64,000 bases of DNA, from the NCBI GenBank assembly GCA_000002445.1, contig CP000071.1, positions 1,504,001-1,568,000 on the forward strand. The letters are read 5' to 3'. Both the position numbers and the translations under genes were made by a program. Source of the stretch: Trypanosoma brucei. Lineage: Eukaryota. Below, one piece after another: positions 4,079 through 28,193 of this stretch (the first letter of the stretch is position 1; every line of letters begins with the position of its first letter). A model generated the notes under the pieces. It ran no database searches. It was not told the origin of the DNA and was given only the letters and a program-made list of their open reading frames with translations.

Positions 4079-4894
4079 TCGCCTGAACCGCTATTTTAAG
4101 TATATATATATATGTATATTACCTTTTTTGTTTTTTCTTTGCGCTTTTACCTCCTCTTTTGTCTCAACTTTTTTTAATTTTATGAGAGGCACTTGTGTGA
4201 AATTGGACACCATAAAGGGCTGAGGAGGGAAGCAGAGAGCAAATGAAAATATGGGAGGGTGAAAAATACATACATATATATTTGTGTTTGTTCGTATTTG
4301 GAGGGATACAAATACGATATATGAAGATATCAACAGTTTTTCACCTGTGGGGGAAGCGTGATTATTATCAGTGAGTGGATGGACTGAAGAACGAATAAAT
4401 GTGTAACAATTTCGTCCTTCATTTTTTCTTCGGTGGCAGACGGGTTTAAATCTAATCGGATAAATAGCACTAAAGTAACGAATGTTAAAATAACCACCGC
4501 AAAGGCATACCTTTTCCTTTTTTGCCCTTTGTGGTGGGAAGTCAGTGGCAAAAGGAAGCGAGAGTAGCGACAGGGAAAGTCTCAGTGCCATGTGACCGTT
4601 TCAGAAAAGAAAATGAAAAAAAGAAGGAAGGGGGAGGGCTGAATGAAGAGAAGATATGCGGGTAAAGGAGGTGCATAACACGAGTGTCAATGCATCGTTT
4701 CAGTGGGTGGTGCACGTGCGCATGTGTTTGTGAGGGTGCGAATCTTTGCCACGTGCTACTTAATTAATGGTAATGGTGCGTGTAGGGGTCCATATACCTT
4801 CTCGTACACGCGGAACCCTCATTTCGGTGGGTGCGTTTGGCAGCGTAACTTTTGTAAACGCCCATCTCCGATGACATGTCTTTCTCTCTTTGAA

Positions 4895-14353: not shown

Positions 14354-17300
14354 ATGAGGGGGTTGCTGTCTCACAATATAGGGGCAATGAAACATCCTGA
14401 GTACCCCCGAACGGATAGCGATGCTTCCTACACGCGGCCGCTCACTATGGATAGTGCTCGCGCAGCTTCGGTATCTGGGAGCGCGCAAAGTGGTTTACCT
14501 GTAGTGTCTTCCATGCAGAGGACACACCCCGGTTCCCCACGCACTACGGTTGCGTGGGATCGGCGCGACGCCAACGCTGGAAAGGCTGAGCCACAAACGG
14601 CTATCGATATGCTGGCGACAGCGTTGTTGCAGCCCTCGCCAAAGGCGTTTGTGGAGTCCGCTCACATTAACCGCTCGTCCACCCCCAAAAAGGTGCGTAC
14701 GCCACCGGTGAAGCACGGTTCACCAAACAAGCAAGGTCCCCGGTGTCACGCTCGGTCGAGCAATGGAGGGACTGACGGTGCCCTACGGCTGAAAGCCACC
14801 ACTCGCTCAGAGAAGCCGGAAGAAGTGCCCCCGGTGGGTACCGGATGCTCTGCTACTGATGGTGCCAAACTGACAACTGACGAAAGGGTTCTAATAGGGA
14901 GGACTGCGTCGGATTTGTACCTCTTTTCAAAAACGAAGACAAAGGGAGGAAGGAGTGTGGGCCGGCAAAGGAAGCGTCTTGAGGGACAAGCGTCAGAGAT
15001 GACCATTGCGGGGAAGCGTGTTTGTGTACATGAGAAGACCCCAGCAACTTCTCGCAAGGATCAGCTGCTCGCACATCCCAACATGGTTATGACAACTAGT
15101 AATGGCAGTGACAGCCAGGATAGTTCTCAGACGACCGATTCAAGGGATGGGTGGTGGGAAGAGGGGAAGGGGCAGGTTGTAAACCCACTCAGCGTCACTA
15201 AGTTAAAGGTTCACCAAAGTGTTGACGATGGTGACACACCCTTGCCGATTTCCATTGACGTAATGTGTTCCACACCCGACAATTCTGAGGAGATCGCCGA
15301 TAGCGTTAGCTCAGTGGGGAGCTCACTGTGCAGTGGCACCGCGTCTCTGGTCAAGGGTCAAATGGACATTATTCCCAACCTCACGGAGGAAAATGGTTCT
15401 GATCAAGGTGTCTCCCATAGGGGAGAAGACCTAAGCGGCGAGGTTAAATCGAAGGAATCATCGCAGTTACTGGTTGGTGAAAATGGAGTCCTTGATGCGC
15501 AAAGGCGTCTTTCGTCAGTGAAGAAGGCATCTGATTTCAGGCTCCAGAGCGCCGGAGCAAAGCCGCCAGGAAAGTTGGTTGCAACCGGCGAAAGCCTGCG
15601 CGGTGCCGGTGATTCCTGCGAGAGTGCCGCACACAAAGTAGAGGAGATAAGCAAGAAAACTATGGAGGTGCTGGACCAAGTACGAAATAGTTGTTTGACA
15701 GTGGCTCCAGCACCTACCAACATCGCGACGGGGAGCCCCCCTGGTGTGTCCGTTGCAAGGAATCCATCCAATGTTAGTTCCATCAAGCCCATTTCGTGTG
15801 GCTCCGCCGGCTGTAGGAAGAACCAAGAAGCGGTAGTGAGTGAGAAGACTAGTAAAGATTTGGCCATAGAGGAGCAGCGTGTTCTCATGGGGTACCTTTC
15901 AGCGTCCGAGTTGGATCTCTCCATGTCAACCTTCAAGCAGATTGGATGCTCTCTCCGAGTCTCAAAAGCACTTCGTGTGCTGAACCTGAAGGGCTGCACG
16001 GCAAGTGAGAAGGGACTGTGTGGCCTGTCAGAGGTTGAAAGTTTAGAGGTTGTGTGTGTTTCACATATGCGAAACCTTACCTCCCTGACAGTACTGGCTA
16101 CGCGTCAGGATGGTCTCTCGTCAAATATCCGAGAGATCGACGCCCGGTGCAGTTCTGTTACCAGTGCTGGTCTTTCGGGGTTAGACAAGATGACGTGCCT
16201 CTCTAAACTCAACCTAAGCCTCACACCAGTGACGAGTGTGAGTCTGCTCGGGGGATCAACTTCCCTGATGGAGCTGAATCTTTCCGGCACTGCTGTGACG
16301 AGCGATGGGCTACTTGGGTTGGAGAAGATTCCCTCACTGACCACACTCAATCTCAGTCGCACTAAAGTAAAGTCACTCCAAAAGATTGCCGAATCGCAGA
16401 CGCTGGAAAATCTAAATCTGTACTCGTGCAGGGTTGATACCAGTGATGTGCGGGGAGTGGAGTGTATGCCTCGGTTGAAGTCCCTTGACTTCAGTACCAC
16501 AAAAGTGTCCGACCTTTCGTTTCTTTCCTCAAGCCCTTCACTGAAAACGTTGAGGGCACAGTGGCTTACTTTGAGGAATTGTGGTGGTATTACTGAGGGT
16601 CGGTACAGCAAGCGTAACATTTCTGGTGGGGATACAAAATTATTCGACTTTATTGGAAACATAAGGGGAAATAACTTTCCGTGCTGGGAAGACCCTGGAA
16701 AAGAGGACCAAGACGTCGAAGCCGGTGTTTGTGGGTTGGCCAAAATACCCACGCTAGAGTTTGTCGATTTATCGTATAGTTCGGTTAGCAGTGTTCGTTC
16801 GTTGTTTTCTAGCAAATCAATCGAGACGATTGTGTTGCGCCGCACCCCGATTGACGACAATGGTATCAAAGATATTGGGCAGCTTCAAACGCTGAAGACG
16901 CTTGTGATTAATAATTTGGGCGATCTCATCTCCGAAGGCGGTGACGAGAATTTATCTGAGACGAAGGGCGTTTTAGTTTCTGTCAAAGATATTACACTGG
17001 CTTTCGGCATGGTTATCCTCGACCTATCCTTTACGGACGTCTATGACCTTCGTATGATAACGTCTTTAAAATGTCTCAAGGAACTATATCTTGTGGAGAC
17101 CCTCATCACCGTCGACGGAATCCGTGGGGTGGAACAATTACCTTCTCTTCGGCTGCTCGATATTTCCCAGACAAGTGTACTTTCGTTGGATTTCCTCTCG
17201 GAGGGATGCAAGGCGCTGGAGCAGTTATTTGTCAAATCCAACCGTAATACAAGCGGCTTTTGTATCGGAAAAATATATCGCCTTCCCATGCTTAAGGAAC

Positions 17301-17920
17301 TCGACGTCAGTGACACTGTTGTAGAGGACATTTCGGCACTCCTGCATTCTTCATGCACACTTCAACGGTTTGTTTGCCGTTGGGGGGAGCGGAGGGTCGC
17401 AAATGGCCTAACGGAGCCGTTGACTCCTTGGTTGCGACCTGCGTTGCTAGATGGCATGGATGCGCTTCCCCATTTGGAAAGCATTGATTTCACAAACTCC
17501 ACCCTTCGATCCGTCACGTTCCTCGCCCGTTCACGTTCGCTTCGGCGTATTGTGTTGGGGCGGAGCAGTAATCTTTCGAACAACGGCATCGGTGGTCTCG
17601 CCCAGATCCCAACTTTGGAGGCGTTGGACCTTAGTTTTTGTGCTCGCATCAGTGACGTGCGGCCACTTGTATCATCGTCTTCTTTGCAGGAGTTAAGGTT
17701 AGTTGGAACCGGTGTGACGGCTGTCGGACTCCACGGCGCATTGCAAATGAAGGCGCTGAAACTTTTAGATGTCACGGGAACTCCCGCAGCAGACGAATTG
17801 AGTGGTATTAGTAATGAGGGAGGCCCGGTGCTTGTGGTTAAGGGCGGTGAGGCGTGCAGCACAAACTTTCCTTCATTATTCAGGCGGTGCCGAACAAGTC
17901 CTGTTGTGATACTACAGTAA
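14354..17920 (+). CDS. Leucine-rich repeat protein (1188 aa): Ser/Thr-rich disordered N-terminal half, then ~20 or more tandem LRRs in the C-terminal half
   Basis: Repeated LxxLxLSxTxVxxLxxL units run from about aa 520 to the C-terminus, e.g. LNLSGTAVTSDGLLGLEKIPSLTTLNLSRTKVKSLQ, LDLSFTDVYDLRMITSLKCLKELYL and LDLSFCARISDVRPLVSSSSLQELRL. This architecture resembles trypanosome LRRP/ESAG8-type LRRs. No RING or other catalytic domain was seen. Confidence 0.75.
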   Translation: MRGLLSHNIGAMKHPEYPRTDSDASYTRPLTMDSARAASVSGSAQSGLPVVSSMQRTHPGSPRTTVAWDRRDANAGKAEPQTAIDMLATALLQPSPKAFVESAHINRSSTPKKVRTPPVKHGSPNKQGPRCHARSSNGGTDGALRLKATTRSEKPEEVPPVGTGCSATDGAKLTTDERVLIGRTASDLYLFSKTKTKGGRSVGRQRKRLEGQASEMTIAGKRVCVHEKTPATSRKDQLLAHPNMVMTTSNGSDSQDSSQTTDSRDGWWEEGKGQVVNPLSVTKLKVHQSVDDGDTPLPISIDVMCSTPDNSEEIADSVSSVGSSLCSGTASLVKGQMDIIPNLTEENGSDQGVSHRGEDLSGEVKSKESSQLLVGENGVLDAQRRLSSVKKASDFRLQSAGAKPPGKLVATGESLRGAGDSCESAAHKVEEISKKTMEVLDQVRNSCLTVAPAPTNIATGSPPGVSVARNPSNVSSIKPISCGSAGCRKNQEAVVSEKTSKDLAIEEQRVLMGYLSASELDLSMSTFKQIGCSLRVSKALRVLNLKGCTASEKGLCGLSEVESLEVVCVSHMRNLTSLTVLATRQDGLSSNIREIDARCSSVTSAGLSGLDKMTCLSKLNLSLTPVTSVSLLGGSTSLMELNLSGTAVTSDGLLGLEKIPSLTTLNLSRTKVKSLQKIAESQTLENLNLYSCRVDTSDVRGVECMPRLKSLDFSTTKVSDLSFLSSSPSLKTLRAQWLTLRNCGGITEGRYSKRNISGGDTKLFDFIGNIRGNNFPCWEDPGKEDQDVEAGVCGLAKIPTLEFVDLSYSSVSSVRSLFSSKSIETIVLRRTPIDDNGIKDIGQLQTLKTLVINNLGDLISEGGDENLSETKGVLVSVKDITLAFGMVILDLSFTDVYDLRMITSLKCLKELYLVETLITVDGIRGVEQLPSLRLLDISQTSVLSLDFLSEGCKALEQLFVKSNRNTSGFCIGKIYRLPMLKELDVSDTVVEDISALLHSSCTLQRFVCRWGERRVANGLTEPLTPWLRPALLDGMDALPHLESIDFTNSTLRSVTFLARSRSLRRIVLGRSSNLSNNGIGGLAQIPTLEALDLSFCARISDVRPLVSSSSLQELRLVGTGVTAVGLHGALQMKALKLLDVTGTPAADELSGISNEGGPVLVVKGGEACSTNFPSLFRRCRTSPVVILQ

Positions 17921-18285
17921 CCCTACAGTGAGAAGAGATGCCTTGCGCTTCGTTTGTTCACATGACGCATGATCGGCGTGCTTTTACACTTATATCTGCG
18001 AAGCTCGTGTTTCTTCCTTTTTATTTTTTTAAAAAAAGCTTCAATGTTTTAATGGGGCGGCGATGTGAAACGTGGGGCTACGAGCGTGAGGTGAACTCGG
18101 CTAATTATTATGAGCAGGAGAAGAGAGAAGTGGTGAGGGCGGTACTGCGCGCCGTGAAGACATGTGTAATATTTGCACTGCGTGAAATTGAATCATGAAG
18201 AGGAATGGAGATGACACGGGTTGATGTAGAAGAGAGGAAAAAATTTCTAGTAGTAGCGGTTTCGTAGTGACGAGTATAGTTAATT

Positions 18286-18290
<5 letters not shown>

Positions 18291-18318
<28 letters not shown>

Positions 18319-18320
18319 GT
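18291..18320. repeat. (TA)n microsatellite
   Basis: tatatatatatatatatatatatat read directly. Confidence 0.9.
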
Positions 18321-19446
18321 TTGATAATACGGTTGTGAGGATATGCAGTGACCAGCAAAGTAATAGAGGTATAAAGTGAGGCATAAGGAGGGCAATGAAT
18401 GACTGTCCGATGGTGGCCAAACAACAACGACTGCAACAATAAAATGGAAGAGAGGATTTGGTGGGGAGTCTCACGTGTCATAATGACAATTGGGTACGTG
18501 ATTGTTTACTTGTGTTACATCACTTAAACCCACACACCCACTCTTTCTACCTTTCTGTCTGTTTTTCTAGTTCCCAAGGAACTAACTTACCCTTTTGTTC
18601 TTTTTTTTCTTTTCCTCCTTTTTTTTATTTTGGCCATGCATGTGGTTAAATGCACTGCTCCACATGCAAAAGGAGCCAATAGCCGCCGTTGTAACGTTGT
18701 AGTTACCATTCTTGTCGTTATCATTATTACCAAGGCTTCGACCGTCGGGTTTCTCTTTCTCTCTTTTTTTCTTTTTGATCTTGCCCTTGCTCTTGCTTTT
18801 GCCTTTGTTTCTGTTTCTGTCCTTTGTTTTATGTTTATCTGTTTGCATTCCTACGAACACAAATAAATTGCATGCACAAACGCATTATATATATTTATGC
18901 ACATATATATATGTATATATTTGCGTGCTTGTGTGTGAATTTTATTTCTATATTTATTCGTTTACCTTTTTTTATATTTATATTTCATGTGTTCACCGTG
19001 TGATTTTTACCTGTCGGAATATGCAACTGGATGAATGTTGTTACAATTATTATTGTTATCATTATCAATGCTATTATTAATAATATGACCACTACTTACT
19101 TTTCCACTTACTTATATTGCCACGAACTTTTTGTTTTTTTTTTTGGTACGCTTAACCGTGACTCTGCACCACGAATAAAATGAAGAGGTGAAGGAGGGAA
19201 GGAAGGAAGGAAAAAAAAAAAGAAAAAAGAAAATAAAACGAAAAGAAGGGGAGACGGCCGTGAGGTGTTTTTTTTTTTTGGGGAGAAAAAAAAACAATAA
19301 TAAAGAGGAAAGAGGAGAAAAGGCATTTCCTTTTTGCATTTGTGGTTTCGTTACAATGGCGTTCGTCCCTTCTTTTTCTTTTCTTTTCTTTTTTTTCTTA
19401 AATGTTCCTTTTGTTGTTACTTATTTTTGTATTTGTGTGTGTCAGT

Positions 19447-19448
<2 letters not shown>

Positions 19449-19477
<29 letters not shown>

Positions 19478-19478
19478 C
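19449..19478. repeat. (TA)n microsatellite
   Basis: aaatatatatatatatatatatatatatgcg. Confidence 0.9.
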
Positions 19479-19719
19479 GTGGGTGAAGGAAATGGGAACA
19501 ATTTTCACATGAAGCAAAAAAATAAAATAAAAAGGAAAAAAAAAGGAAAAAAAAAGAAGAAAATTGGATGAGGAATGAAGGGGAGGAAAGAAGAAGAAAA
19601 AGAAGAGGAGGTAAAATAATAATTAAAAAAAAAAAAGAGCACAAAAGACATAATGAAGCAAAAAAAAAAGGAAAAAGGAAAAAGGAAAGGAAAGGAAAAA
19701 GTGAAAATGAATATATGCA

Positions 19720-19724
<5 letters not shown>

Positions 19725-19763
<39 letters not shown>

Positions 19764-19860
19764 AATATATATATATATGTTTATACGCTGAGACATGTTA
19801 TCAAAACGAAACGAAACAAAACAAAACAAAAAACCAAAAAAAACAACAACAACAACAACA
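19725..19860. repeat. Compound microsatellite: (TG)n/(TA)n, then (AAAC)n and (CAA)n
   Basis: tgtgtgtatatatatatatatatatatatatatatatgtaaatatatatatatatg ... aaacgaaacgaaacaaaacaaaacaaaa ... caacaacaacaacaacaacg. Confidence 0.9.
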
Positions 19861-20888
19861 ACGAGTACACCTTATGGATAGCAAAAGGGGGTTATTATGA
19901 TCATATAAATATGTGGTCTTTACATACGTGTGATTATTATATACAATTATATTCAGAATTGTTCATTTATTCGCATCACACATTCATTCATTCATTCAAA
20001 AACATATACACATATGAATTTTGTATGAATAAGCACACTTATGTACTCATATAACTTTTCCTCTTTGATTTTGTTTTATTTTCTGTCTTATCATTTAGGT
20101 TGCTTCCGTTTGGTATTCTCTGTGTTATATTCCATTTATTTTTCTAAAAAAAAAGGAAATAATAATTTTTTTTGTTTGTCTCACTGGTCTCTATTACTTC
20201 CTTCCATTTTTATGCTTTCACAAATAAGGCGGCTCTGACTATTATTATTGTTATTATTATTTGGTGGAAAAAAAGGCAAAACAAAAAAAAAAAAAGAACA
20301 GGAGTAAACACCAAATGTAAGCTACCAGGTGCGAAGGCACAAAAAAACAAAAAAGGAAAAATAACAGAGGGAAGGAGACAAACAACCGGGGACACATACA
20401 AAAAGGAGAAAAGAAATGAAAAAAAAAGAAGAGAAATTATTACTTACACATGGCTTCACATGAAAACATGAGAATTGTATACATGATCATATATTTTTGA
20501 AAAAAAAAATGCATGAAAAACACTTACACTTATATGTTTACAAATTTATGCTAATGTGTTATTGCGGCCACTAAAAAGAAAACAAAAAAAACCTAACGGG
20601 TGCTCGGACAAAAAAAGAAAAAAAGTGGAAATGAAGGGATGAAGGGTTTAAACATTTCAAGATATTTATCAAATATAATTTAAATAAATATATATGCAAG
20701 TGAAAAAGGATATGTATGAATAGAGATGAAAGATAAAAAAAATGTAGGTTTATGTCTCAGGGTTGAAAGAAGGAAAAAAATAAAAAGAAAAAATAACAAC
20801 ACCACCACATCCATTTCTTTTTCTCTTTTTTTTTTTTTTACAAAATTTCCTTTTTCCCCCTTTTTTCCTTTTTTTTTTGTTTTAAATG

Positions 20889-20915
20889 TTTGTGCTTGTG
20901 CTTGTGCTTGTGCTT
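20889..20915. repeat. (TTGTGC)4 hexanucleotide repeat
   Basis: tgtgcttgtgcttgtgcttgtgctt. Confidence 0.9.
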
Positions 20916-22782
20916 TTTTTTTTCCTTCATTTTCTCATCCCTCTGATTTTCAGTAGTGTCAGCGGTGTAAAATTTGTAGAATGGATTCATCGGTTAATTT
21001 TTTTTTTATGTGTGTGTATGTTTGATTTTTTTTTCTTTTTTTCTTCCACCTTTGTTTAAATATGAACAATTTTTTTTTTCCAAATAAAAAATGTATAGTG
21101 GTGTTAAAACACATAACGGAGGTGATGAAGTGCATGCTTCTCTATTTTGTTCCCATTTGTTTGTTGTTTTCTTTTTTCTTCTGTTTTTTCTTTTCTCTTT
21201 TTTCTTTTTTTTTTAAATATATTTGGTTGTGTGTGATTATTTGACTATTTGAAATGGCGTGTGAGAGGCCTCATTTTTGAGAATGCGGGGGAAATTAAAA
21301 AAAAGAAAAAAGAACAGGAGTGATAAAATGATACAAATAAAAGTTTTTTTTTTTAAAAAAAATAAAAAAGAGGGAAGGTGAGTGAAGGAGAGGGGAAGTT
21401 TTTTCTTTTTCTTTTGTTTTTTTTAATTTATGTTCTTGGAATTAGTGAACTCAACTGTCCACCTGTTCATTTTACTTTTTTTTTTTTAGTTAATTCATTT
21501 CGGTTTTATTATTTTTCTTATTTCTACTTTTATGCAATAATTTCTCTGCTTTGTGATGATCTTTAGTGCTAAGAACGAAAAGTGAGAGGGAAAGGGGGGG
21601 GGGAAAATAAAAATATAAATATATATGTTTATAAAATAAAACAAGACAGAACAAAACAAAACAAAATTTAAAATAAAAACCCATACTTTTATGTTTTAAT
21701 TTAGCGTTCGCCAAGCTGCGACGGATGTTTTATCTGTCTTATGCGTGTATGTGTATGCATGTGAGTGTGTCCGTGTCTGTAAAAGTCAGCTCATAAATAA
21801 TTATATATATAAGTATTTATATATATATTTATTTATTTATAAATACAAATGCAAGTTTTCATTCTTCAAAAATGAAAACATTTCACCCATTCAAACACAT
21901 TCGCATGCACACAAAAAGAAAAAAAAAGAAGAGGATTATATTTAAAAAAAAATGGACAAAAAGCGTTCAGCCGAGGGAGGGAAGTGGAGAGAAACTGTGA
22001 AGGGTTTCACATATTAAGAGGGAAAATGCAAAATTAAAGGGGGAGGGGGAAAAAAGGAGTCAAGAATGTGTTAGCCTTATGATTATTTTAACAGTTGTTT
22101 TTATTTTTTTTATTTATTTATGTTTTTTTTTTTTCGCCTCCCAGTGTTTGCCTGCACCAGCGTCGATGTTCTGTTTTGTGTCTGTGTGATTTCCGATTCT
22201 TATTTTCCCGCTTCTGCTTTCGTCTTTAATCTTTTTTTAAAAAAAATGTTTCAAAGCGGTTTATTTATTTATTTATTGTGTTGTAGTTTTTTTTTGTGTG
22301 TGTTTACTCTCGTGTTCACCTTTTACTTGATCCACTCTTTTTGTTTTGTTTTCCTTTATTTTCCTTTTTTGTTTTTAAGTCTTATTTTTAGCGTCGTTTG
22401 GTTCCGCTATTTATCCGCTCCATTTGAGCCCGCGAATGAACATATCTGAAGAACCGTATTTGTCTTTTTTTTTTGTTTTTTTGTTTTGTTTTGGAGTATG
22501 TGGCTGTTTTTCCCCCCATCTTTTTTTCCCCTTTTCCTTTTTTTTTTCCCTTCCCTTCCCTTCCCCTTCCCTTTCTTTTTTTTCTTTTAAATTAAAAAAA
22601 AAAACAATTATTTTTACACTGCTTTCTAGTTTTTTTTTTTGAAGAAAAAAAGAAAAGAAAAACAATATTATTGATCTCTCACTCCCTCTTCATATTGACT
22701 CTCCCCCTCCCATAATATATATGAGTTTATACAAATATTCATTATCACAAGGAGACGCCACTAATAATAAATACTGTCGTTT

Positions 22783-22914
22783 ATTCTTTTGTTCTCTTTT
22801 TTTTTTTTGTTAAATATCTGCTTTATGCATTTATTACACATTTTTTTCTTGTTTATTCTCCCTATATTTATCTTAATGTTTCCTGCACTTACACATGTGG
22901 GTATCATTAAAGAG
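22783..22914 (+). promoter_or_regulatory. Long polypyrimidine tract plus AG upstream of cytochrome c, followed by an unusually A-rich 5' leader
   Basis: ttattcttttgttctcttttttttttttg...tttttttcttgtttattctccctatatttatcttaatgtttcctgcactt, then aaAGAG at ~22911-22914. About 145 nt of A-rich sequence lies between this site and the ATG at 23060. Confidence 0.45.
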
Positions 22915-23059
22915 TTTTTTTTTAAAAAGAAAAAACAAACCAACAACAGCATCAGCAATAATAATAATAACAACAATATATTAACAAAAAAGTAAAAAAA
23001 AAGAAGAAGAGAAAAGAAATAATTCAAAAAAAAAAAGAAAAATAAAAGAATAAAAGTAA

Positions 23060-23404
23060 ATGCCACCAAAGGAGCGTGCAGCACTTCCACCCGGTGACGC
23101 AGTGCGTGGGGAGAAACTTTTTAAGGGCCGGGCGGCGCAGTGCCACACGGGTACAAAAGGCGGTTCCAACGGTGTTGGGCCTAATTTATATGGAATTGTT
23201 GGCCGTAAATCCGGAACTGTTGAGGGTTTTACGTACAGCAAAGCCAATCAAGATTCCGGTGTTATGTGGACTCCGCAGGTACTTGACGTGTATTTGGAGA
23301 ATCCAAAGAAATTTATGCCCGGCACTAAAATGTCTTTTGCAGGTTTAAAGAAACCACAGGAACGCGCCGACCTCATCGCATACCTCGAGACATTAAAGGA
23401 CTAA
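23060..23404 (+). CDS. Mitochondrial cytochrome c (114 aa) with the kinetoplastid single-cysteine haem-binding motif AxxCH
   Basis: [31 protein letters not shown]...[13 protein letters not shown]...[31 protein letters not shown]. This is the canonical class I cytochrome c fold, including the Met ligand region (PGTKMSF), but the CxxCH motif is replaced by AAQCH. That replacement is the hallmark of euglenozoan cytochrome c. Confidence 0.95.
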
Positions 23405-23577
23405 AATGAGATAATAGAAAAATTTATAATATTTATAATATAACTACATTATTGAAAATTTATGTTATCATACATGTATTATTAAAGCAGAGGATGGAAG
23501 GAAGAAAGGAGGGGGGGGGTTATGTTATGATGGCAAGGATTCCATTATTATTATTATTATTTTACTTTGTGGCTATC

Positions 23578-23612
23578 GTTATCATTATCATTATCATTAT
23601 CATTATCATTAT
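23578..23612. repeat. (ATCATT)n hexanucleotide repeat, about 5 units
   Basis: atcattatcattatcattatcattatcatt, about 170 nt downstream of the cytochrome c stop. Confidence 0.9.
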
Positions 23613-24242
23613 TTATATTTGTTATTTGGGACTATGAGACGAGCAAGAAAACGAAGGAAAACATGACCAATAGTTAATGTTAATGTTAATGTTATTGTTT
23701 TTTTAATTTTTTTTTGTTTTTGATAAGAGGAAAAAGAAGAAGAGACGCCATGAAGGAAAAGAAAAGAAGAACATAAATGAATTACAAAACGAAAATGAAA
23801 AGAAACACAAATCAAAGTAGAATTAAGTGAAACTAAATTTAAAGATGTGTGTGGTGTTGTCACCGTAAATGTTCCTATGCCATGAGAGGTTTATTTTATT
23901 TTTTGAACCTATCAAGATTCTTCTTTTTTTTTTCCTTTTCGTTCCCTTCCGCTCCATTTGCCGGAAAACTACGGTGCGACTTCACATTAATTTAGTGTTT
24001 TGTCTCTTTTGTTTCCCCCCTCCTGACTTTTTGCCATGTCAGAAGAGCAAAATAAAAAACAAAATGAAAAGGAGGAAAAAAAATAAAAATAAAAAAGAAA
24101 AGAGCAAAAGAGGGATGTACGTTATGATGGGGATGGAGGGGGGGGGAGGGAATTTTAAACCGCAACAATACACATTTATATTTTTTATATTTATGAATGC
24201 AAACATGAAAAGGGTGAATAAAAAGAATAAACAGGAACAAAA

Positions 24243-24377
24243 ATATGTAAAAGGATGGAGATTGGGGAGGGGAGGAGGAGGAGGAGGAGGAACAGAGGAA
24301 TATTGCGGTGTGCAATTTTTTGTCTTTGTCTTTTTCTTTTTTTATTTTTATTTTTATTTTTCCCTCCCCTCCCCAAT
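24243..24377. repeat. Inverted repeat (stem ~24-25 bp, spacer ~85 nt) with G-rich and C-rich arms, overlapping a (GGA)n tract
   Basis: The left arm is ggatggagattggggaggggag at 24243-24267. The right arm is ctcccctccccaatctccatcc at 24353-24377, an exact reverse complement of the left arm, read by eye. A (GGA)7 run follows the left arm. Confidence 0.7.
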
Positions 24378-25369
24378 CTCCATCCTCCTCTTGCACTTTA
24401 ACGATACGTAAGGTGTTTTGTTATTGAAAAGAGGAGTGTTTGTGTGGCAGGCCAAGTATTACAAGGAGAATAAAACAAACAAATAAAAGAGCAAACAAAC
24501 AAAAGGAAAAGGAGGGATTCAAAAAAGAAAAAGAAAAGAGGAAAGGGAAGCGACCGCAACTCCCTGAGTTCTAAGAACTTTCTTAATCCATATACATGGG
24601 GTAAATACATTTATAAGGGATAATTGAAATAATAATAATAATAATTAAAAAAAATCAAGACAGAACGCAACAGGATATACATCTATATCTATATTATTGT
24701 TATTATTATCGGCCTAAAAAAAATTTCTCGCAATAGTTTTGTTTTTTTTGTCTATGTGCCCGTGTGCTTGTGTTTTTGTTTGTTCCCTTTGTTGTGGGCA
24801 TTTCCAGCGGCCGCATCTTTACAGCCATCACAATTAAGCCCATCAAATGACCGCTCCATGCATTACTCTTCTTCCTATTTCTACTCCATTTCGTCTTATT
24901 ATTATTACTGTTGTTGTTGTTGTTGTTTTTATTGTTATGAACTTTATTGTTGCATATACTCGGTTCTTCATGTATTTTGCCTCCGCATGTCACCTTTCGT
25001 TTTGCTTCATTTCTATTTTTCCCTTTCCCCCCTCCGCCCTCTGGTCTCCTCCTCATCCTTTTGCGTGTGAAGCAGAGGGAAAAAGAGGTGAGGTAGCGGT
25101 AAAAAATAAATTTCCTTTCATAAAGTTACAAATGTTTGTAGGCTTGCATATTTATTAGGGAAGTTGGGTATATAAACATGTAGGAAACAGGTTTGCCGTG
25201 TCGTTCCTTCCGTTCATGCTTAATATAAGCCGTGTGGATATTTGTGACATGTGTGATTATGTTGAGTTATGTCTTGTGACTTACCAGGGATAAGGCCTGA
25301 AAACGGAGTAGTGGAGGAAGCGGACGAGACTGAAACGGTAAGACAGTGTGAACCTCCGCACTGACCTCA

Positions 25370-25444
25370 GTTTTTTCGCCCTTTTTTTCCTGCTTTTTTT
25401 TATTTTCCATTTGATTGATTATCTTTTTTTTTTTCTTTCTGGAA
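25370..25444 (+). promoter_or_regulatory. Polypyrimidine tract plus AG upstream of the 578-aa ORF
   Basis: ttttttcgccctttttttcctgcttttttttattttccatttgattgattatctttttttttttctttctggAAG. AG at ~25443-25444. First ATG at 25691. Confidence 0.5.
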
Positions 25445-25690
25445 GTGACCTCTCTTTTGTAGTGGTAGTGTTGGTGGATAGCGTTGTGGTGCAAAATCTG
25501 CCCCGTTGAGCGTCCGTTAGACGAGGCGTCACGGCCTGCCAATAGAGGCGGAGTTGTCAAAAGTATAATAAATTAAACGGGCACTCACAACAACAACAAC
25601 AGTAACCAAACACCGCTTGTGCCGAAAGTGGAAGAAAAGGGAGAGTGAGGCAGCAGGTGAAGGAGAGGGGCAGTAGATATTCTTTTGGCA

Positions 25691-27424
25691 ATGCAGCATC
25701 ACTTCCACCTCAATCGCAGTTTCGATATGCAGTTGTCTCCCGTTGCAGCCTCTATTATCGACTGGGCTCCAGCTGGCCGCACCGGTACCGTTGGGAATTC
25801 CCACACTCCCGCATGTTCCCTTCCAACTGTAGGCGTAAACGGGTCACACACTCATGCGGTGGATTCGACGTCATTAAGCGGTGCGGCTAAACTTAAACCT
25901 GCTGAAAATCTCTCTGGCATGCGGGTGCTGCACCGGTGCACTCGGCAGTTGCTTGCCAATTCGTGCGTGTTGGTGCCGATCTTTTCACGGGGTACGTTTA
26001 ATGTGAATGCGGGGCTGCTCGCTTCTCTCGGTCTGACCGGCGGGTGGAACGATGCCTGCTCGCGGCCTTCCGGTTTCCACGCCAATGATGTGCTGCAATT
26101 GGAGGCGACGTGGGGCAAGAGGCAATGGGCGGGGATATTTAACTTGGTGTGTTTCTCTTGGATGTCTACCACTCTTCCCCTATTTGAGTTTATTACGGTG
26201 TCACCTCGGACAGATTCGTCGCTGCAGGTCGACCGACTGATGTTCAACTGGAGCGGTTTCTGGCGGGTGTTCGTTTCGGGTGACGGCAGTCGCCGAAATT
26301 CGCTCATATCGATGGATTCCCCCGCTGAAAGGTTTGTCGCTGACGTACCTGTTGCGCCCACTGGGAAACTACCTGACGAGAGTAAGTTGGGTGGTGTTAC
26401 CGGTGTTGATAAAAAACATGACGGGCTTTCCACTACGCCTCCGATTACCTCTAATGGTGATGATACAAGACGTGGAGGTGCCATCAGTACTGGAAAAAAA
26501 GTAAAGGTTGGTAATACCAGTGGCAATACCACTTCAATGAATGGCGATAGCGGTAGCGGCACGGCAGGGGTTTGCATGAAGAAAAGGGAAGAAGTTGCTG
26601 AGCCTGTCAGTGGCTCGAGTAGTGAGTTATGCGCCGAAACACAGAAGGTGGGTCGGTGGTGGAGGATTCGAGAGTTGCGCTGCGGTGTAGGTGTTGCTCT
26701 GAAAAATGACATCGTGAGTGCAGCAAACGCTTACTTTGGTTATAGCTTCCACCTGGGTCGAGCACTAACTTTCTCCTCGCATGTGGATGTTCTCCGTCGC
26801 GGCTGCTACTCCGTCACATGCAGCACCGATCGCTTCGACCTCGCCACGCGTCTGCGTGTCAACCACATCACATCGCATTTCACCGAGATGGATGCTGGAA
26901 TTGGTTGGCGGCCGCTACGGCACGTACCTGGCTTTACGTGCCGCCTCTCGTACTCGATGGGCCGCACATCGATGGGTTTTACTGCCCGTGATGTTACTAC
27001 TCACTGGGGTTTGGCGGCTCACAGAACTGAAACTCCGGTGCAGGCCACAGCGGTTCTACCACCACCGCTATCTTCCCTCCCTGTCCCCGTTGCTGTGGAG
27101 TCAAGGGGAGCTTTGTTACAGTTGTGGGACGCTAGCGTGGACTGGGGGCTGAGTGCAGCTCATTTAGTGCTTGGTACTCTTTTACCTTCATTAACTGGGA
27201 GCGCAGCAGCGGGGCGGCGGGTTGTAAAGGAGGGGGAGGAGGTGGAGGTTCCGGAGCATAAACCCAGGCAGTGGAATCGTCTCTCTCGAGCATTTCTTGC
27301 TGGTGTCAGCTACTGTAAAGCTTCGGTAACACAGGCGAAATTTGACCTCACGATGGGGGTGGCGACGCAGCAACCGAGACAATCGAGGCCTCTGAGGTTC
27401 TTTTTTGTTGTTTCAGCCTACTGA
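25691..27424 (+). CDS. Hypothetical protein (578 aa from the first ATG; the track opens at a TTG at 25685). The N-terminal half is Ser/Gly/Thr-rich and the C-terminal ~260 aa is beta-strand-rich, ending ...LRFFFVVSAY
   Basis: Long ORF on the same strand with coding-like composition. The C-terminal domain shows alternating hydrophobic/polar dyads (GVGVALKNDIVSAANAYFGYSFHLG, FDLATRLRVNHI, FTCRLSYSMG, AKFDLTMGVAT) and a terminal aromatic residue. No known motif was recognised. Confidence 0.6.
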   Translation: MQHHFHLNRSFDMQLSPVAASIIDWAPAGRTGTVGNSHTPACSLPTVGVNGSHTHAVDSTSLSGAAKLKPAENLSGMRVLHRCTRQLLANSCVLVPIFSRGTFNVNAGLLASLGLTGGWNDACSRPSGFHANDVLQLEATWGKRQWAGIFNLVCFSWMSTTLPLFEFITVSPRTDSSLQVDRLMFNWSGFWRVFVSGDGSRRNSLISMDSPAERFVADVPVAPTGKLPDESKLGGVTGVDKKHDGLSTTPPITSNGDDTRRGGAISTGKKVKVGNTSGNTTSMNGDSGSGTAGVCMKKREEVAEPVSGSSSELCAETQKVGRWWRIRELRCGVGVALKNDIVSAANAYFGYSFHLGRALTFSSHVDVLRRGCYSVTCSTDRFDLATRLRVNHITSHFTEMDAGIGWRPLRHVPGFTCRLSYSMGRTSMGFTARDVTTHWGLAAHRTETPVQATAVLPPPLSSLPVPVAVESRGALLQLWDASVDWGLSAAHLVLGTLLPSLTGSAAAGRRVVKEGEEVEVPEHKPRQWNRLSRAFLAGVSYCKASVTQAKFDLTMGVATQQPRQSRPLRFFFVVSAY

Positions 27425-28193
27425 GGGGGGGGGGAGGGGCGGGAGCTTCTTTTCACTTTTTTGTTGTATGTCCACATGAGGCAACTCGCTGCGTATGTGA
27501 CCATGCGGATTCGGGTGATGTGTCTCTGCCACACTGTGGAATAGTCGCATATTTGCTTCTGACAACATCGCCTCAACAGCGACGTCGAAACCATGTTGCT
27601 GCTGCTCGTCAGAAGGTGTGTGTTTGGCTTGGGAGCCTATGCCATCGGAATCGGAAGGGTTTCTCGGATTTATATCAAAATAAATATATGTAACTTCACT
27701 ATGATTGGGTTACTGACGTCGTTGCCGTCCGTATCCATCTTCCACTGATTTCGTCCGTTCAGTAAACTCAATTTCACATATATTTCCTCCTTCTTTCTTT
27801 TTGATTGTTTAAGGGCGCTTCTCCGTCGCAGTTTTGTTTCCACACCACCAAATAGACGTAAAATTCAACAAGCGAGGGGGAGTGGAGGGTTTTTTCTTTT
27901 CAAAAAGGGAAAGAGAAATATAAGAGATAGAAGGCGAAAGAGGAGCATAGGAAAGTCACTTGACCTGGTGCTAAATAACGTCGAGTTTCAAAAGGAAAAG
28001 AGGGGGGGGGAAAGAAATAAAATAAGGTAAAATATTTGTATATCTTCCTTGGTACTGTGTTGCTGCACCTCCGTAGTGTACCAGATTTCAGGTGCACAAC
28101 ATCTACATCGTTGTTCGCTTGCGTTTGACAGTTTGTTACTGTTCTCTGCAGTTTCAATAGGGGAGTTGTTGGGCTGCTGTACGCGTAAGGAAA

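What the first reader, a model, noticed from the sequence alone, without database searches (positions are those of the whole stretch)
24243..24377. Perfect ~24-bp inverted repeat (G-rich arm / C-rich arm, ~85-nt loop) about 0.85 kb downstream of the cytochrome c stop
The left arm ggatggagattggggaggggag at 24243-24267 is exactly reverse-complemented by ctcccctccccaatctccatcc at 24353-24377. A (GGA)7 run and a (TTTTTA)n run lie in between. As RNA this would form a very stable hairpin. As DNA the G-rich arm could adopt G-quadruplex structure. A 24-nt perfect palindromic pair is unlikely by chance even in low-complexity DNA, because the central ...agattgggg.../...ccccaatct... segment is not itself a simple repeat. 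It could be a 3'-UTR regulatory stem-loop, a processing or polyadenylation boundary, or a recombination-prone structure.
Basis: seen in the sequence. Interest (0 to 1): 0.5.

Follow-up and report, generated by a model that had tools for sequence, protein, structure and literature searches.

The report
Hairpin repeat in cytochrome c 3' UTR
A real, perfectly matched 24-base inverted repeat sits inside the long 3' untranslated region of the Trypanosoma brucei cytochrome c mRNA and overlaps a pyrimidine-rich processing signal, but it is confined to the T. brucei group and shows no sign of selection, so it is most likely an ordinary by-product of low-complexity spacer DNA.

Summary
The inverted repeat is real. 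The arms are 24252-24275 and 24363-24386, 9-10 nt right of the coordinates given. They match 24/24 across an 87-nt loop holding (GGA)7 and (TTTTTA)~4. It exceeds chance: the longest repeat in 1000 shuffles was 16-18 nt. It gives the most stable 180-nt RNA fold in the whole 64 kb.

The window is T. brucei TREU927 chromosome 8 (Tb927_08_v4 coordinate minus 1,504,000). Published poly(A) mapping puts the main cytochrome c (Tb927.8.5120) poly(A) site at window 24903, a 1499-nt 3' UTR. The hairpin (UTR nt 848-982) is therefore transcribed within the mature mRNA. The same study flags the gene as having an internal alternative processing site.

The C-rich arm is the 3' end of the purest long polypyrimidine tract in the UTR (24316-24399, next AG at 24411).

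Evolution argues against a selected structure. A second T. brucei haplotype carries 2-3 arm changes, all of which weaken pairing and none of which is compensated. That rate equals or exceeds the spacer average. T. vivax has no counterpart.

No known RNA family, small-RNA class, transposon or canonical G-quadruplex definition is met.

Verdict: a lineage-restricted local inverted duplication, probably neutral. It might at most mask an internal processing signal. Interest is low.

The parts
23060..23404 (+). Cytochrome c coding sequence (Tb927.8.5120), the gene whose 3' UTR carries the repeat
   Evidence: ORF of 114 aa. Pfam PF00034 on the identical protein in T. equiperdum. Kolev Table S3 gives ORF coordinates 1527060-1527404, which fixes the offset to the window at 1,504,000.
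23405..24903 (+). Predominant cytochrome c 3' UTR in procyclic forms (1499 nt)
   Evidence: Kolev et al. 2010 Table S13 gives predominant PAS 1528903, 3' UTR 1499 nt, averaged 3' UTR 1282.9 nt and dispersion 221. Table S3 lists the gene as 'alt 3UTR'.
24252..24275 (+). Left, G-rich arm AGGATGGAGATTGGGGAGGGGAGG
   Evidence: (I5).
24276..24362 (+). 87-nt loop. It holds the rest of (GGA)7, a small inner hairpin (UUGCGGUGUGCAA) and a T-rich tract with (TTTTTA)3.8 at 24339-24361.
   Evidence: The loop length varies among strains through microsatellite units.
24363..24386 (+). Right, C-rich arm CCTCCCCTCCCCAATCTCCATCCT
   Evidence: (I5).
24316..24399 (+). Polypyrimidine tract. 24316-24374 is 59 nt at 92% pyrimidine. 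After an AA break, 24377-24399 continues it. The tract contains the right arm.
   Evidence: using the tract definition of Kolev et al..
24411..24412 (+). First AG downstream of the tract, a candidate internal trans-splice acceptor (inferred, not mapped)
   Evidence: The first-AG rule is from Clayton 2019.
24129..24150 (+). Upstream G-box GGGGATGGAGGGGGGGGGAGGG. It shares GGATGGAG with the left arm, fits the canonical G4 motif, and is 82% complementary to 24353-24374, so it is an alternative pairing partner for the C-rich arm.
   Evidence: (I8).

Best explanation
The feature is a lineage-restricted local inverted duplication in the low-complexity 3' UTR of T. brucei cytochrome c.

Shown:
- A discrete 24-nt segment is present in both orientations with sharp boundaries.
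- One copy ends a G-rich purine tract. The other forms the C-rich 3' end of an ~84-nt polypyrimidine tract.
- Both copies are transcribed within the predominant 1.5-kb 3' UTR.
- The RNA is predicted to fold into a very stable hairpin.

Inferred:
- The duplication arose once, before the split of the two T. brucei haplotype groups, by a replication or repair template switch or a similar event.
- The (GGA)n and (TTTTTA)n microsatellites between the arms have drifted in length since then.
- The arms are decaying at the neutral rate.
- Any effect is a side-effect of pairing. The hairpin hides the C-rich half of an internal polypyrimidine tract and the G-tract from single-strand-binding factors. This would favour read-through to the distal poly(A) site at 24903.
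- I see no evidence that this effect is selected.
For: Reality and non-randomness.

Transcribed inside the UTR: Kolev 2010 Tables S3 and S13.

Sharp boundaries: similarity stops on both sides of the 24 nt. The left arm is flanked by ATATGTAAA and runs into AGGAGG. The reverse complement of the right arm is flanked by GTGCAAGAGG and runs into GAAAAAT.

Present in both haplotype groups, so older than their split.

Arm changes in the second haplotype:
- Against TREU927, the DAL972 and IVM-t1 haplotype has an inserted C (plus extra GGA units in IVM-t1) in the left arm and a C-to-A change in the right arm.
- DAL972 also has an A-to-G change that gives a G-U pair.
- No pair changed on both sides.
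- Using the partner arm as an internal outgroup, all the changes are derived losses of pairing.

Rates: the spacer shows 3.1-3.4 events per 100 nt, so 1.5-1.6 events are expected in the 48 arm nucleotides, and 2-3 were observed. The whole 135-nt element carries 7 events.

No counterpart in T. vivax: the syntenic cyt c to POMP41 spacer has no inverted repeat of 14 nt or more and is not alignable.

[quoted passage not shown] Weaker purine-tract/pyrimidine-tract pairings occur elsewhere in the window, for example 4101-4250.
Against: Only four sequences in two haplotype groups were available, so the covariation test has almost no power.

The hairpin remains strong in the degraded haplotype (-63 against -75 kcal/mol). 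That is also what weak purifying selection on stability would give.

A 24/24 match maintained in TREU927 and T. equiperdum OVI, in a spacer diverging at about 3 events per 100 nt, could reflect constraint or conversion between the arms.

The position is suggestive rather than random-looking. The repeat sits exactly on the purest long polypyrimidine tract of a gene already flagged for internal alternative processing and known to be strongly stage-regulated.
Confidence: 0.55

Rival explanations
1. The hairpin is a functional cis-acting switch on alternative 3'-end processing. By sequestering the internal polypyrimidine tract (24316-24399) and the AG at 24411, it suppresses internal polyadenylation and trans-splicing and favours the long 3' UTR. 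Opening it, by a helicase or by a G-tract or C-tract binding protein, gives the short isoform and a UTR-derived non-coding RNA. This would contribute to stage regulation of cytochrome c.
For: The right arm lies within the purest long polypyrimidine tract in the UTR, and the first AG follows 12 nt after the tract.

The gene is on Kolev's list of 394 genes with an internal 3'-UTR processing site. Its averaged 3' UTR (1283 nt) is 216 nt shorter than the predominant one.

A poly(A) cluster about 100 nt upstream of this tract (distance rule from Clayton 2019) would need about 30% of reads, which is plausible.

The stem pairs with probability 0.99 in a 1-kb context.

The mRNA is 6-10 times higher in procyclic than in bloodstream forms.

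The hairpin is retained in both haplotypes.
Against: The position of the internal site is unknown. The tract at 23918-24024 fits the published numbers equally well, needing about 20% of reads.

All polypyrimidine tracts in this UTR are predicted to be mostly paired (P unpaired 0.18-0.28), so masking is not specific to this one.

The arm changes are uncompensated and occur at the neutral rate.

There is no counterpart in T. vivax.
Confidence: 0.2
2. The feature is a DNA-level structure. When single-stranded during replication or transcription, the repeat together with the G-rich purine tract forms hairpin, G4 or triplex DNA. This makes the site prone to slippage, breakage or recombination.
For: The DNA hairpin folds at -30.4 kcal/mol with z = -4.8.

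The loop microsatellites differ in unit number among all four genomes.

The element carries more differences (7 in 135 nt) than the spacer average.

A canonical G4 motif lies 120 nt upstream.
Against: An 87-nt spacer is unfavourable for cruciform extrusion from duplex DNA (established knowledge).

The arm itself lacks a canonical G4 motif.

No rearrangement, deletion or inversion of the element is seen in any of the four genomes.

Microsatellite length change is expected with or without the arms.
Confidence: 0.1
3. The hairpin is a precursor of a small RNA (miRNA-like or hairpin siRNA) processed by the T. brucei Dicers.
For: A 24-bp perfect stem, extended by G-U pairs, is long enough for Dicer. 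Sub-threshold Rfam matches are all to miRNA-precursor models.
Against: Every Rfam hit is far below its gathering score (for example 37 against 64 bits), on both strands and to unrelated plant, animal and viral families. This is generic hairpin similarity.

AGO1-bound small-RNA sequencing found no miRNAs. The siRNA-producing inverted repeats were 422 bp to 10 kb long, and none is at this locus (Tschudi 2012, PMC3447711).
Confidence: 0.03
4. The feature is a relic of a miniature inverted-repeat transposable element, with the 24-nt arms as terminal inverted repeats.
For: The shape fits: a 135-bp unit bounded by perfect inverted termini.
Against: There is no target-site duplication. The flanks are GTAAA and CCTCT.

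There is no second copy in the 64 kb, even with 3 mismatches.

The interior is microsatellite sequence.

To my knowledge no DNA transposons or MITEs are known in T. brucei.
Confidence: 0.03

Closest known systems
Internal (alternative) polypyrimidine-tract processing signals in trypanosome 3' UTRs (Kolev et al. 2010 'alt 3UTR' class; Clayton 2019, figure 3c-f)
   Same: A long U/C-rich tract followed by an AG lies inside a long 3' UTR. The gene is on the published list of 394 genes with internal 3'-UTR processing. The long isoform retains the tract.
   Different: Use of this particular tract is not demonstrated. Such signals are not described as being paired to an upstream perfect complement, so the inverted arm is an addition.
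Structured 3'-UTR regulatory elements of T. brucei procyclic-specific mRNAs (e.g. the EP/GPEET procyclin 16-mer stem-loop and U-rich 26-mer). This comparison is from my own knowledge.
   Same: A stem-loop lies in the 3' UTR of an mRNA up-regulated in procyclic forms, with U-rich sequence nearby.
   Different: Those elements are short and were defined by reporter mutagenesis. This stem is 24 bp with an 87-nt microsatellite loop. It is not shared with other mRNAs in the window, is absent from T. vivax, and shows no compensatory change.
Long inverted repeats that yield siRNAs in T. brucei (Tschudi et al. 2012, IR1-IR7)
   Same: Near-perfect inverted repeats are transcribed by Pol II.
   Different: Those are 422 bp to 10 kb per arm, and this one is 24 nt. 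None maps to this locus. No small RNAs are known from here.
Quasi-palindromes and local inverted duplications generated by template switching (general mutational class). This comparison is from my own knowledge.
   Same: A short, discrete segment is present in both orientations within about 100 nt, with sharp boundaries, in repetitive DNA.
   Different: The generating event cannot be reconstructed here. The TREU927 state cannot be derived from the DAL972 state by a single arm-to-arm copying event, because each arm of DAL972 carries its own private change.

Membership tests
Trypanosomatid trans-splicing/polyadenylation signal | Polypyrimidine tract of tens of nucleotides, U-preferred in T. brucei | tested here: met
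   24316-24374 is 59 nt at 92% pyrimidine, and 24377-24399 continues it. Definition from Kolev 2010 and Clayton 2019.
Trypanosomatid trans-splicing/polyadenylation signal | AG acceptor downstream of the tract, with no G at position -3 | tested here: met
   The first AG is at 24411-24412, and position -3 is A.
Trypanosomatid trans-splicing/polyadenylation signal | Spliced-leader reads at the AG and poly(A) reads about 100 nt upstream of the tract | not testable with these tools
   Kolev Table S3 says an internal site exists somewhere in this UTR. The full SAS and PAS tables are truncated in the held copy and contain no chromosome 8 rows near 15281xx-15286xx. The Nilsson 2010 and Siegel 2010 supplements are not informative or not held.
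Conserved structured RNA element | Base pairs maintained by compensatory (two-sided) substitutions | tested here: not met
   0 of 24 pairs have a change on both sides. One pair is broken in 2 of 4 sequences, one is A-U to G-U, and haplotype B has a bulge. Power is low with 4 sequences.
Conserved structured RNA element | Presence in orthologous UTRs of other species | tested here: not met
   The syntenic spacer of T. vivax has no inverted repeat of 14 nt or more and no alignable sequence. T. congolense was not obtainable.
Rfam families (including miRNA precursors) | Score at or above the family gathering threshold | tested here: not met
   There are 0 hits at gathering over the 64 kb. The best sub-threshold hit is 37 bits against 64 required, among hits on both strands and to unrelated families.
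siRNA-producing inverted repeat of T. brucei | Long arms (422 bp to 10 kb) and AGO1-bound 22-25-nt reads | tested here: not met
   The arm is 24 nt. The locus is not among IR1-IR7. Read mapping could not be done here.
MITE / TIR transposon | Target-site duplication flanking the terminal inverted repeats | tested here: not met
   The flanks are ...GTAAA and CCTCT....
MITE / TIR transposon | Multiple dispersed copies | tested here: inconclusive
   There is no second copy in the 64-kb window. The whole genome was not searchable. A metagenome scan gave only chance 20-mer hits.
Canonical G-quadruplex motif | Four runs of three or more G separated by loops of 1-7 nt | tested here: not met
   The arm region has GGGG-A-GGGG followed only by GG runs. 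A canonical motif exists at 24129-24150, outside the repeat.
Cruciform-forming palindrome | Short or absent spacer between the arms | tested here: not met
   The spacer is 87 nt, and 81-93 nt in the other strains.

The most novel reading that the evidence does not exclude
The hairpin is a natural 'mask' that decides whether an internal polypyrimidine tract is used. A stage-specific factor would open the stem in one life-cycle stage. Candidates are a G-tract-binding hnRNP F/H-type protein, a C-rich-tract binder such as DRBD3/PTB1, or a helicase. Opening would switch cytochrome c between a short and a 1.5-kb 3' UTR and release a capped, polyadenylated UTR-derived RNA. This would be a worked example answering the open question of why some trypanosome polypyrimidine tracts are used and others ignored (posed in Clayton 2019).
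Probability: 0.1. Interest if true: 0.6.

Novelty: new member of a known kind. Interest (0 to 1): 0.22.

Why it matters
As it stands, it matters little. It is one unusually clean hairpin in a genome whose spacers are full of complementary purine and pyrimidine tracts. It shows none of the evolutionary signatures of a functional RNA structure.

Its one point of interest is positional. It pairs a strong internal polypyrimidine tract to an upstream complement. It does so in a highly expressed, stage-regulated gene that is already known to have internal 3'-UTR processing.

If pairing were shown to control use of that tract, the locus would be a convenient single-copy model for how trypanosomes choose among competing processing signals. 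Reviews list that question as unresolved.

Tried and rejected
1. More T. brucei strains. Exact-protein look-ups for the window's POMP41 protein, the TREU927 protein P0131 and a neutral downstream ORF returned nothing. Only T. equiperdum OVI, T. b. gambiense DAL972 and T. b. equiperdum IVM-t1 were obtained.

2. Logan contigs L003-L006 carrying cytochrome c. I hoped they would mark mRNA ends. They have no spliced leader and no poly(A), and they end in or shortly after the T-run at about 23918-23935, or at about 23993 for L003 and L004. None of them reaches the repeat.

3. L007-L009 (another trypanosomatid, 83% identical cytochrome c). The downstream spacer is not alignable.

4. A figure of '1892' next to Tb927.8.5120 in Mugo & Clayton 2017 Table S5. 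It equals 48 + 345 + 1499 and looked like an mRNA length. Reading the header showed it is a raw read count, so I discarded it.

5. Locating the internal alternative site. I searched the Kolev supplements for coordinates 15275xx-15286xx, and also the Nilsson 2010 and Antwi 2016 supplements. None was informative. The Siegel 2010 supplements are not held.

6. A metagenome scan with a 20-mer shared by all four arm variants gave four unrelated chance matches.

7. Rfam gave nothing at gathering thresholds and only generic hairpin matches below them.

8. The overlapping ORFs 23869-24411 (+) and 23992-24396 (-) were not pursued as genes. The one I translated, 23869-24411 (+), gives a low-complexity product.

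9. A single-step quasi-palindrome 'correction' as the origin of the perfect TREU927 arms was rejected. Neither DAL972 arm could have templated the TREU927 state.

10. A literature search for a described cytochrome c mRNA element found none.

Full report
**Identity of the window**

The 114-aa ORF at 23060-23404 is cytochrome c (PF00034).

The next gene, 25691-27424, is identical in protein sequence to XP_847343 of T. brucei brucei TREU927. Homologues of this gene are annotated POMP41.

Kolev et al. 2010 (PMC2936537) Table S3 gives the Tb927.8.5120 ORF as Tb927_08_v4:1527060-1527404. Window coordinates are therefore chromosome 8 coordinates minus 1,504,000.

The annotated genes identified around the repeat all lie on the + strand, as expected for a polycistronic unit.

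**The observation**

The inverted repeat exists, but 9-10 nt to the right of the stated coordinates.
- The maximal perfect arms are 24252-24275 (AGGATGGAGATTGGGGAGGGGAGG) and 24363-24386 (its exact reverse complement), with 87 nt between them.
- The loop holds (GGA)7 (24271-91, overlapping the inner end of the left arm), a small inner hairpin, and (TTTTTA)3.8 at 24339-61.
- Similarity ends abruptly at both ends of the 24 nt.

It is more than chance.
- The longest perfect inverted repeat was 16 nt in 1000 dinucleotide shuffles of the UTR.
- It was 18 nt in 1000 shuffles that preserve local purine-rich and pyrimidine-rich composition.
- It is the only non-microsatellite perfect inverted repeat of at least 16 nt in the 64 kb.

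The RNA fold is exceptional.
- The RNA folds at -75.7 kcal/mol with z = -6.7.
- The 180-nt window 24241-24420 is the most stable of 3192 windows in absolute terms despite 40% GC. It lies 6.8 SD below the GC trend.
- In a 1-kb context the arm pairs have a mean probability of 0.99.

**Is it transcribed, and where in the mRNA?**

Kolev et al. mapped poly(A) sites in procyclic forms.
- For Tb927.8.5120 the predominant site is 1528903, which is window 24903, giving a 3' UTR of 1499 nt.
- The averaged 3' UTR is 1282.9 nt and the dispersion is 221. Dispersion is the read-weighted mean distance to the main site.
- The repeat occupies UTR nucleotides 848-982, so it lies inside the predominant mature mRNA.

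The gene is also in Table S3, the list of 394 genes with an internal 3'-UTR processing site.
- Such genes give a full-length mRNA, a shorter coding mRNA and a putative non-coding UTR-derived RNA.
- The position of that internal site is not in the held text.
- The published numbers require that (fraction of reads) x (distance upstream of 24903) is about 219 nt.

**Relation to processing signals**

I applied Kolev's tract definition.
- 24316-24374 (59 nt, 92% pyrimidine) continued by 24377-24399 is the purest long polypyrimidine tract between the stop codon and the main poly(A) site.
- The right arm is its C-rich 3' end. The first AG follows at 24411, with A at position -3.
- Polyadenylation occurs about 100 nt upstream of an active tract in T. 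brucei (Clayton 2019). On that rule a cluster near 24200-24290 would need about 30% of reads.

The alternative tract at 23918-24024 would need about 20% of reads. Both are plausible, so the assignment remains an inference.

The idea that the hairpin specifically masks this tract is weakened by the partition-function result. All tracts in this UTR are predicted to be mostly paired, with P(unpaired) of 0.18-0.28. The UTR is full of complementary purine runs.

**Comparative evidence**

Four T. brucei-group sequences were obtained.
- T. equiperdum OVI shares the TREU927 haplotype. Its arms are identical and its loop has one extra TTTTTA unit.
- T. b. gambiense DAL972 and T. b. equiperdum IVM-t1 share a second haplotype.

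In that second haplotype:
- The left arm has an inserted C (GGAGG-C-GG), with extra GGA units in IVM-t1.
- The right arm has CCCC changed to CCAC, which creates a G.A mismatch.
- DAL972 additionally has an A-to-G change that gives a G-U pair.
- A pair count on the alignment shows 0 of 24 pairs changed on both sides.

Taking each arm as an internal outgroup for the other, all these changes are derived losses of pairing.

Across the 2.3-kb spacer the two haplotypes differ by 3.1-3.4 events per 100 nt. That predicts 1.5-1.6 events in the 48 arm nucleotides, and 2-3 are seen. The 135-nt element as a whole carries 7 events. The arms therefore evolve at or above the local neutral rate.

The hairpin is nevertheless still strong in the second haplotype (-63 kcal/mol).

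In T. vivax the gene order cytochrome c, POMP41, diacylglycerol kinase is conserved. The spacer is not alignable and contains no inverted repeat of 14 nt or more. T. congolense could not be retrieved.

The sample is small, so absence of covariation is weak evidence. What evidence exists points away from a selected structure.

**Known families**

- Rfam gives no hit at gathering thresholds in the whole window.
- With permissive thresholds the hairpin matches about twenty unrelated miRNA-precursor models on both strands, at roughly a fifth to just over half of the required score. This is generic hairpin resemblance.
- T. brucei AGO1-bound small RNAs include no miRNAs. They derive from inverted repeats of 422 bp to 10 kb, none at this locus (Tschudi 2012).
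- There is no target-site duplication and no second copy in the window, so a MITE is unlikely.
- The arm lacks the canonical four-run G4 motif. A canonical motif, GGGGATGGAGGGGGGGGGAGGG, lies at 24129-24150. It shares GGATGGAG with the left arm and is itself 82% complementary to the C-rich arm.
- The 87-nt spacer is unfavourable for cruciform extrusion. As single-stranded DNA the hairpin folds at -30 kcal/mol.

**Interpretation**

The most economical reading is a single local inverted duplication of a short G-rich segment.
- It occurred in low-complexity UTR DNA and predates the split of the two haplotypes.
- It is now decaying neutrally, while the intervening microsatellites change length.
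- It is transcribed and almost certainly folds. Its likeliest consequence is steric, because it hides the C-rich half of an internal tract and the G-tract from single-strand-binding proteins.

Whether that consequence is used by the cell is unproven. I put a real regulatory role in alternative processing at about 0.2, and a stage-specific switch at about 0.1.

The mRNA is strongly stage-regulated: 56-89 RPM in bloodstream forms against 539-564 in procyclic forms, falling after RBP10 induction. Two UAUUUUUU motifs of the type bound by RBP10 lie upstream of the hairpin at 23897 and 24179. Conventional elements can therefore already account for the regulation.

**Verdict**

The repeat is inside the 3' UTR, forms a stable hairpin and is possibly linked to processing. 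It is not a conserved or co-varying element and not a canonical G4.

It is a real but ordinary feature: a new instance of a known kind, a local hairpin-forming repeat in a trypanosome UTR. Interest is low.

Noticed in passing
window 17921-23059: A 5.1-kb low-complexity spacer of 28-30% GC lies between the LRR-protein gene (Tb927.8.5110, CDS 14354-17920) and cytochrome c. Kolev Table S13 gives Tb927.8.5110 a predominant 3' UTR of 5073 nt ending at window 22993. That position is in an A-rich genomic run just before the cytochrome c ATG and downstream of plausible cytochrome c splice acceptors, so the site may be an oligo-dT internal-priming artefact. The spacer is about 1.2 kb shorter in T. b. 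gambiense.
   Followed up: partly
window 22870-22915: Kolev Table S3 gives the cytochrome c transcript 5' end as 1526879, which is window 22879. That position is preceded by TG, not AG. The nearest AGs are at 22911 and 22913.
   Followed up: no
window 24129-24150, 23492 and 24253: Three G-rich boxes starting with GGATGGA occur on the + strand of the same 3' UTR. The one at 24129 fits a canonical G4 motif and is 82% complementary to the C-rich arm, which offers an alternative pairing partner.
   Followed up: partly
window 23897 and 24179: Two UAUUUUUU motifs, the sequence reported to be bound by RBP10, lie in the cytochrome c 3' UTR upstream of the hairpin. Cytochrome c mRNA falls after RBP10 induction in procyclic forms according to Mugo & Clayton 2017 Table S5.
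   Followed up: partly
window 23405-25690 against L001, L002 and L012: The cyt c to POMP41 spacer exists as two haplotype groups differing by 3.1-3.4 events per 100 nt. TREU927 groups with T. equiperdum OVI. T. b. gambiense DAL972 groups with T. b. equiperdum IVM-t1. The two 'equiperdum' genomes therefore fall in different groups.
   Followed up: partly
window 19451-19476 and 19728-19760: (TA)n arrays about 250 nt apart give self-complementary and mutually complementary runs of up to 26 nt. They account for the other 'inverted repeats' in the window.
   Followed up: no
window 22504-22588: An 85-nt tract of 98% pyrimidine lies about 470 nt upstream of the cytochrome c ATG. Its first downstream AG is only at 22628.
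   Followed up: no
window 27425-27443: The G-run GGGGGGGGGGAGGGGCGGG, which fits the canonical G4 motif, starts immediately after the POMP41 stop codon.
   Followed up: no
window 23110-23145: Cytochrome c has the single-cysteine haem-binding motif AAQCH, in place of CXXCH. To my knowledge this is the usual trypanosomatid form.
   Followed up: no
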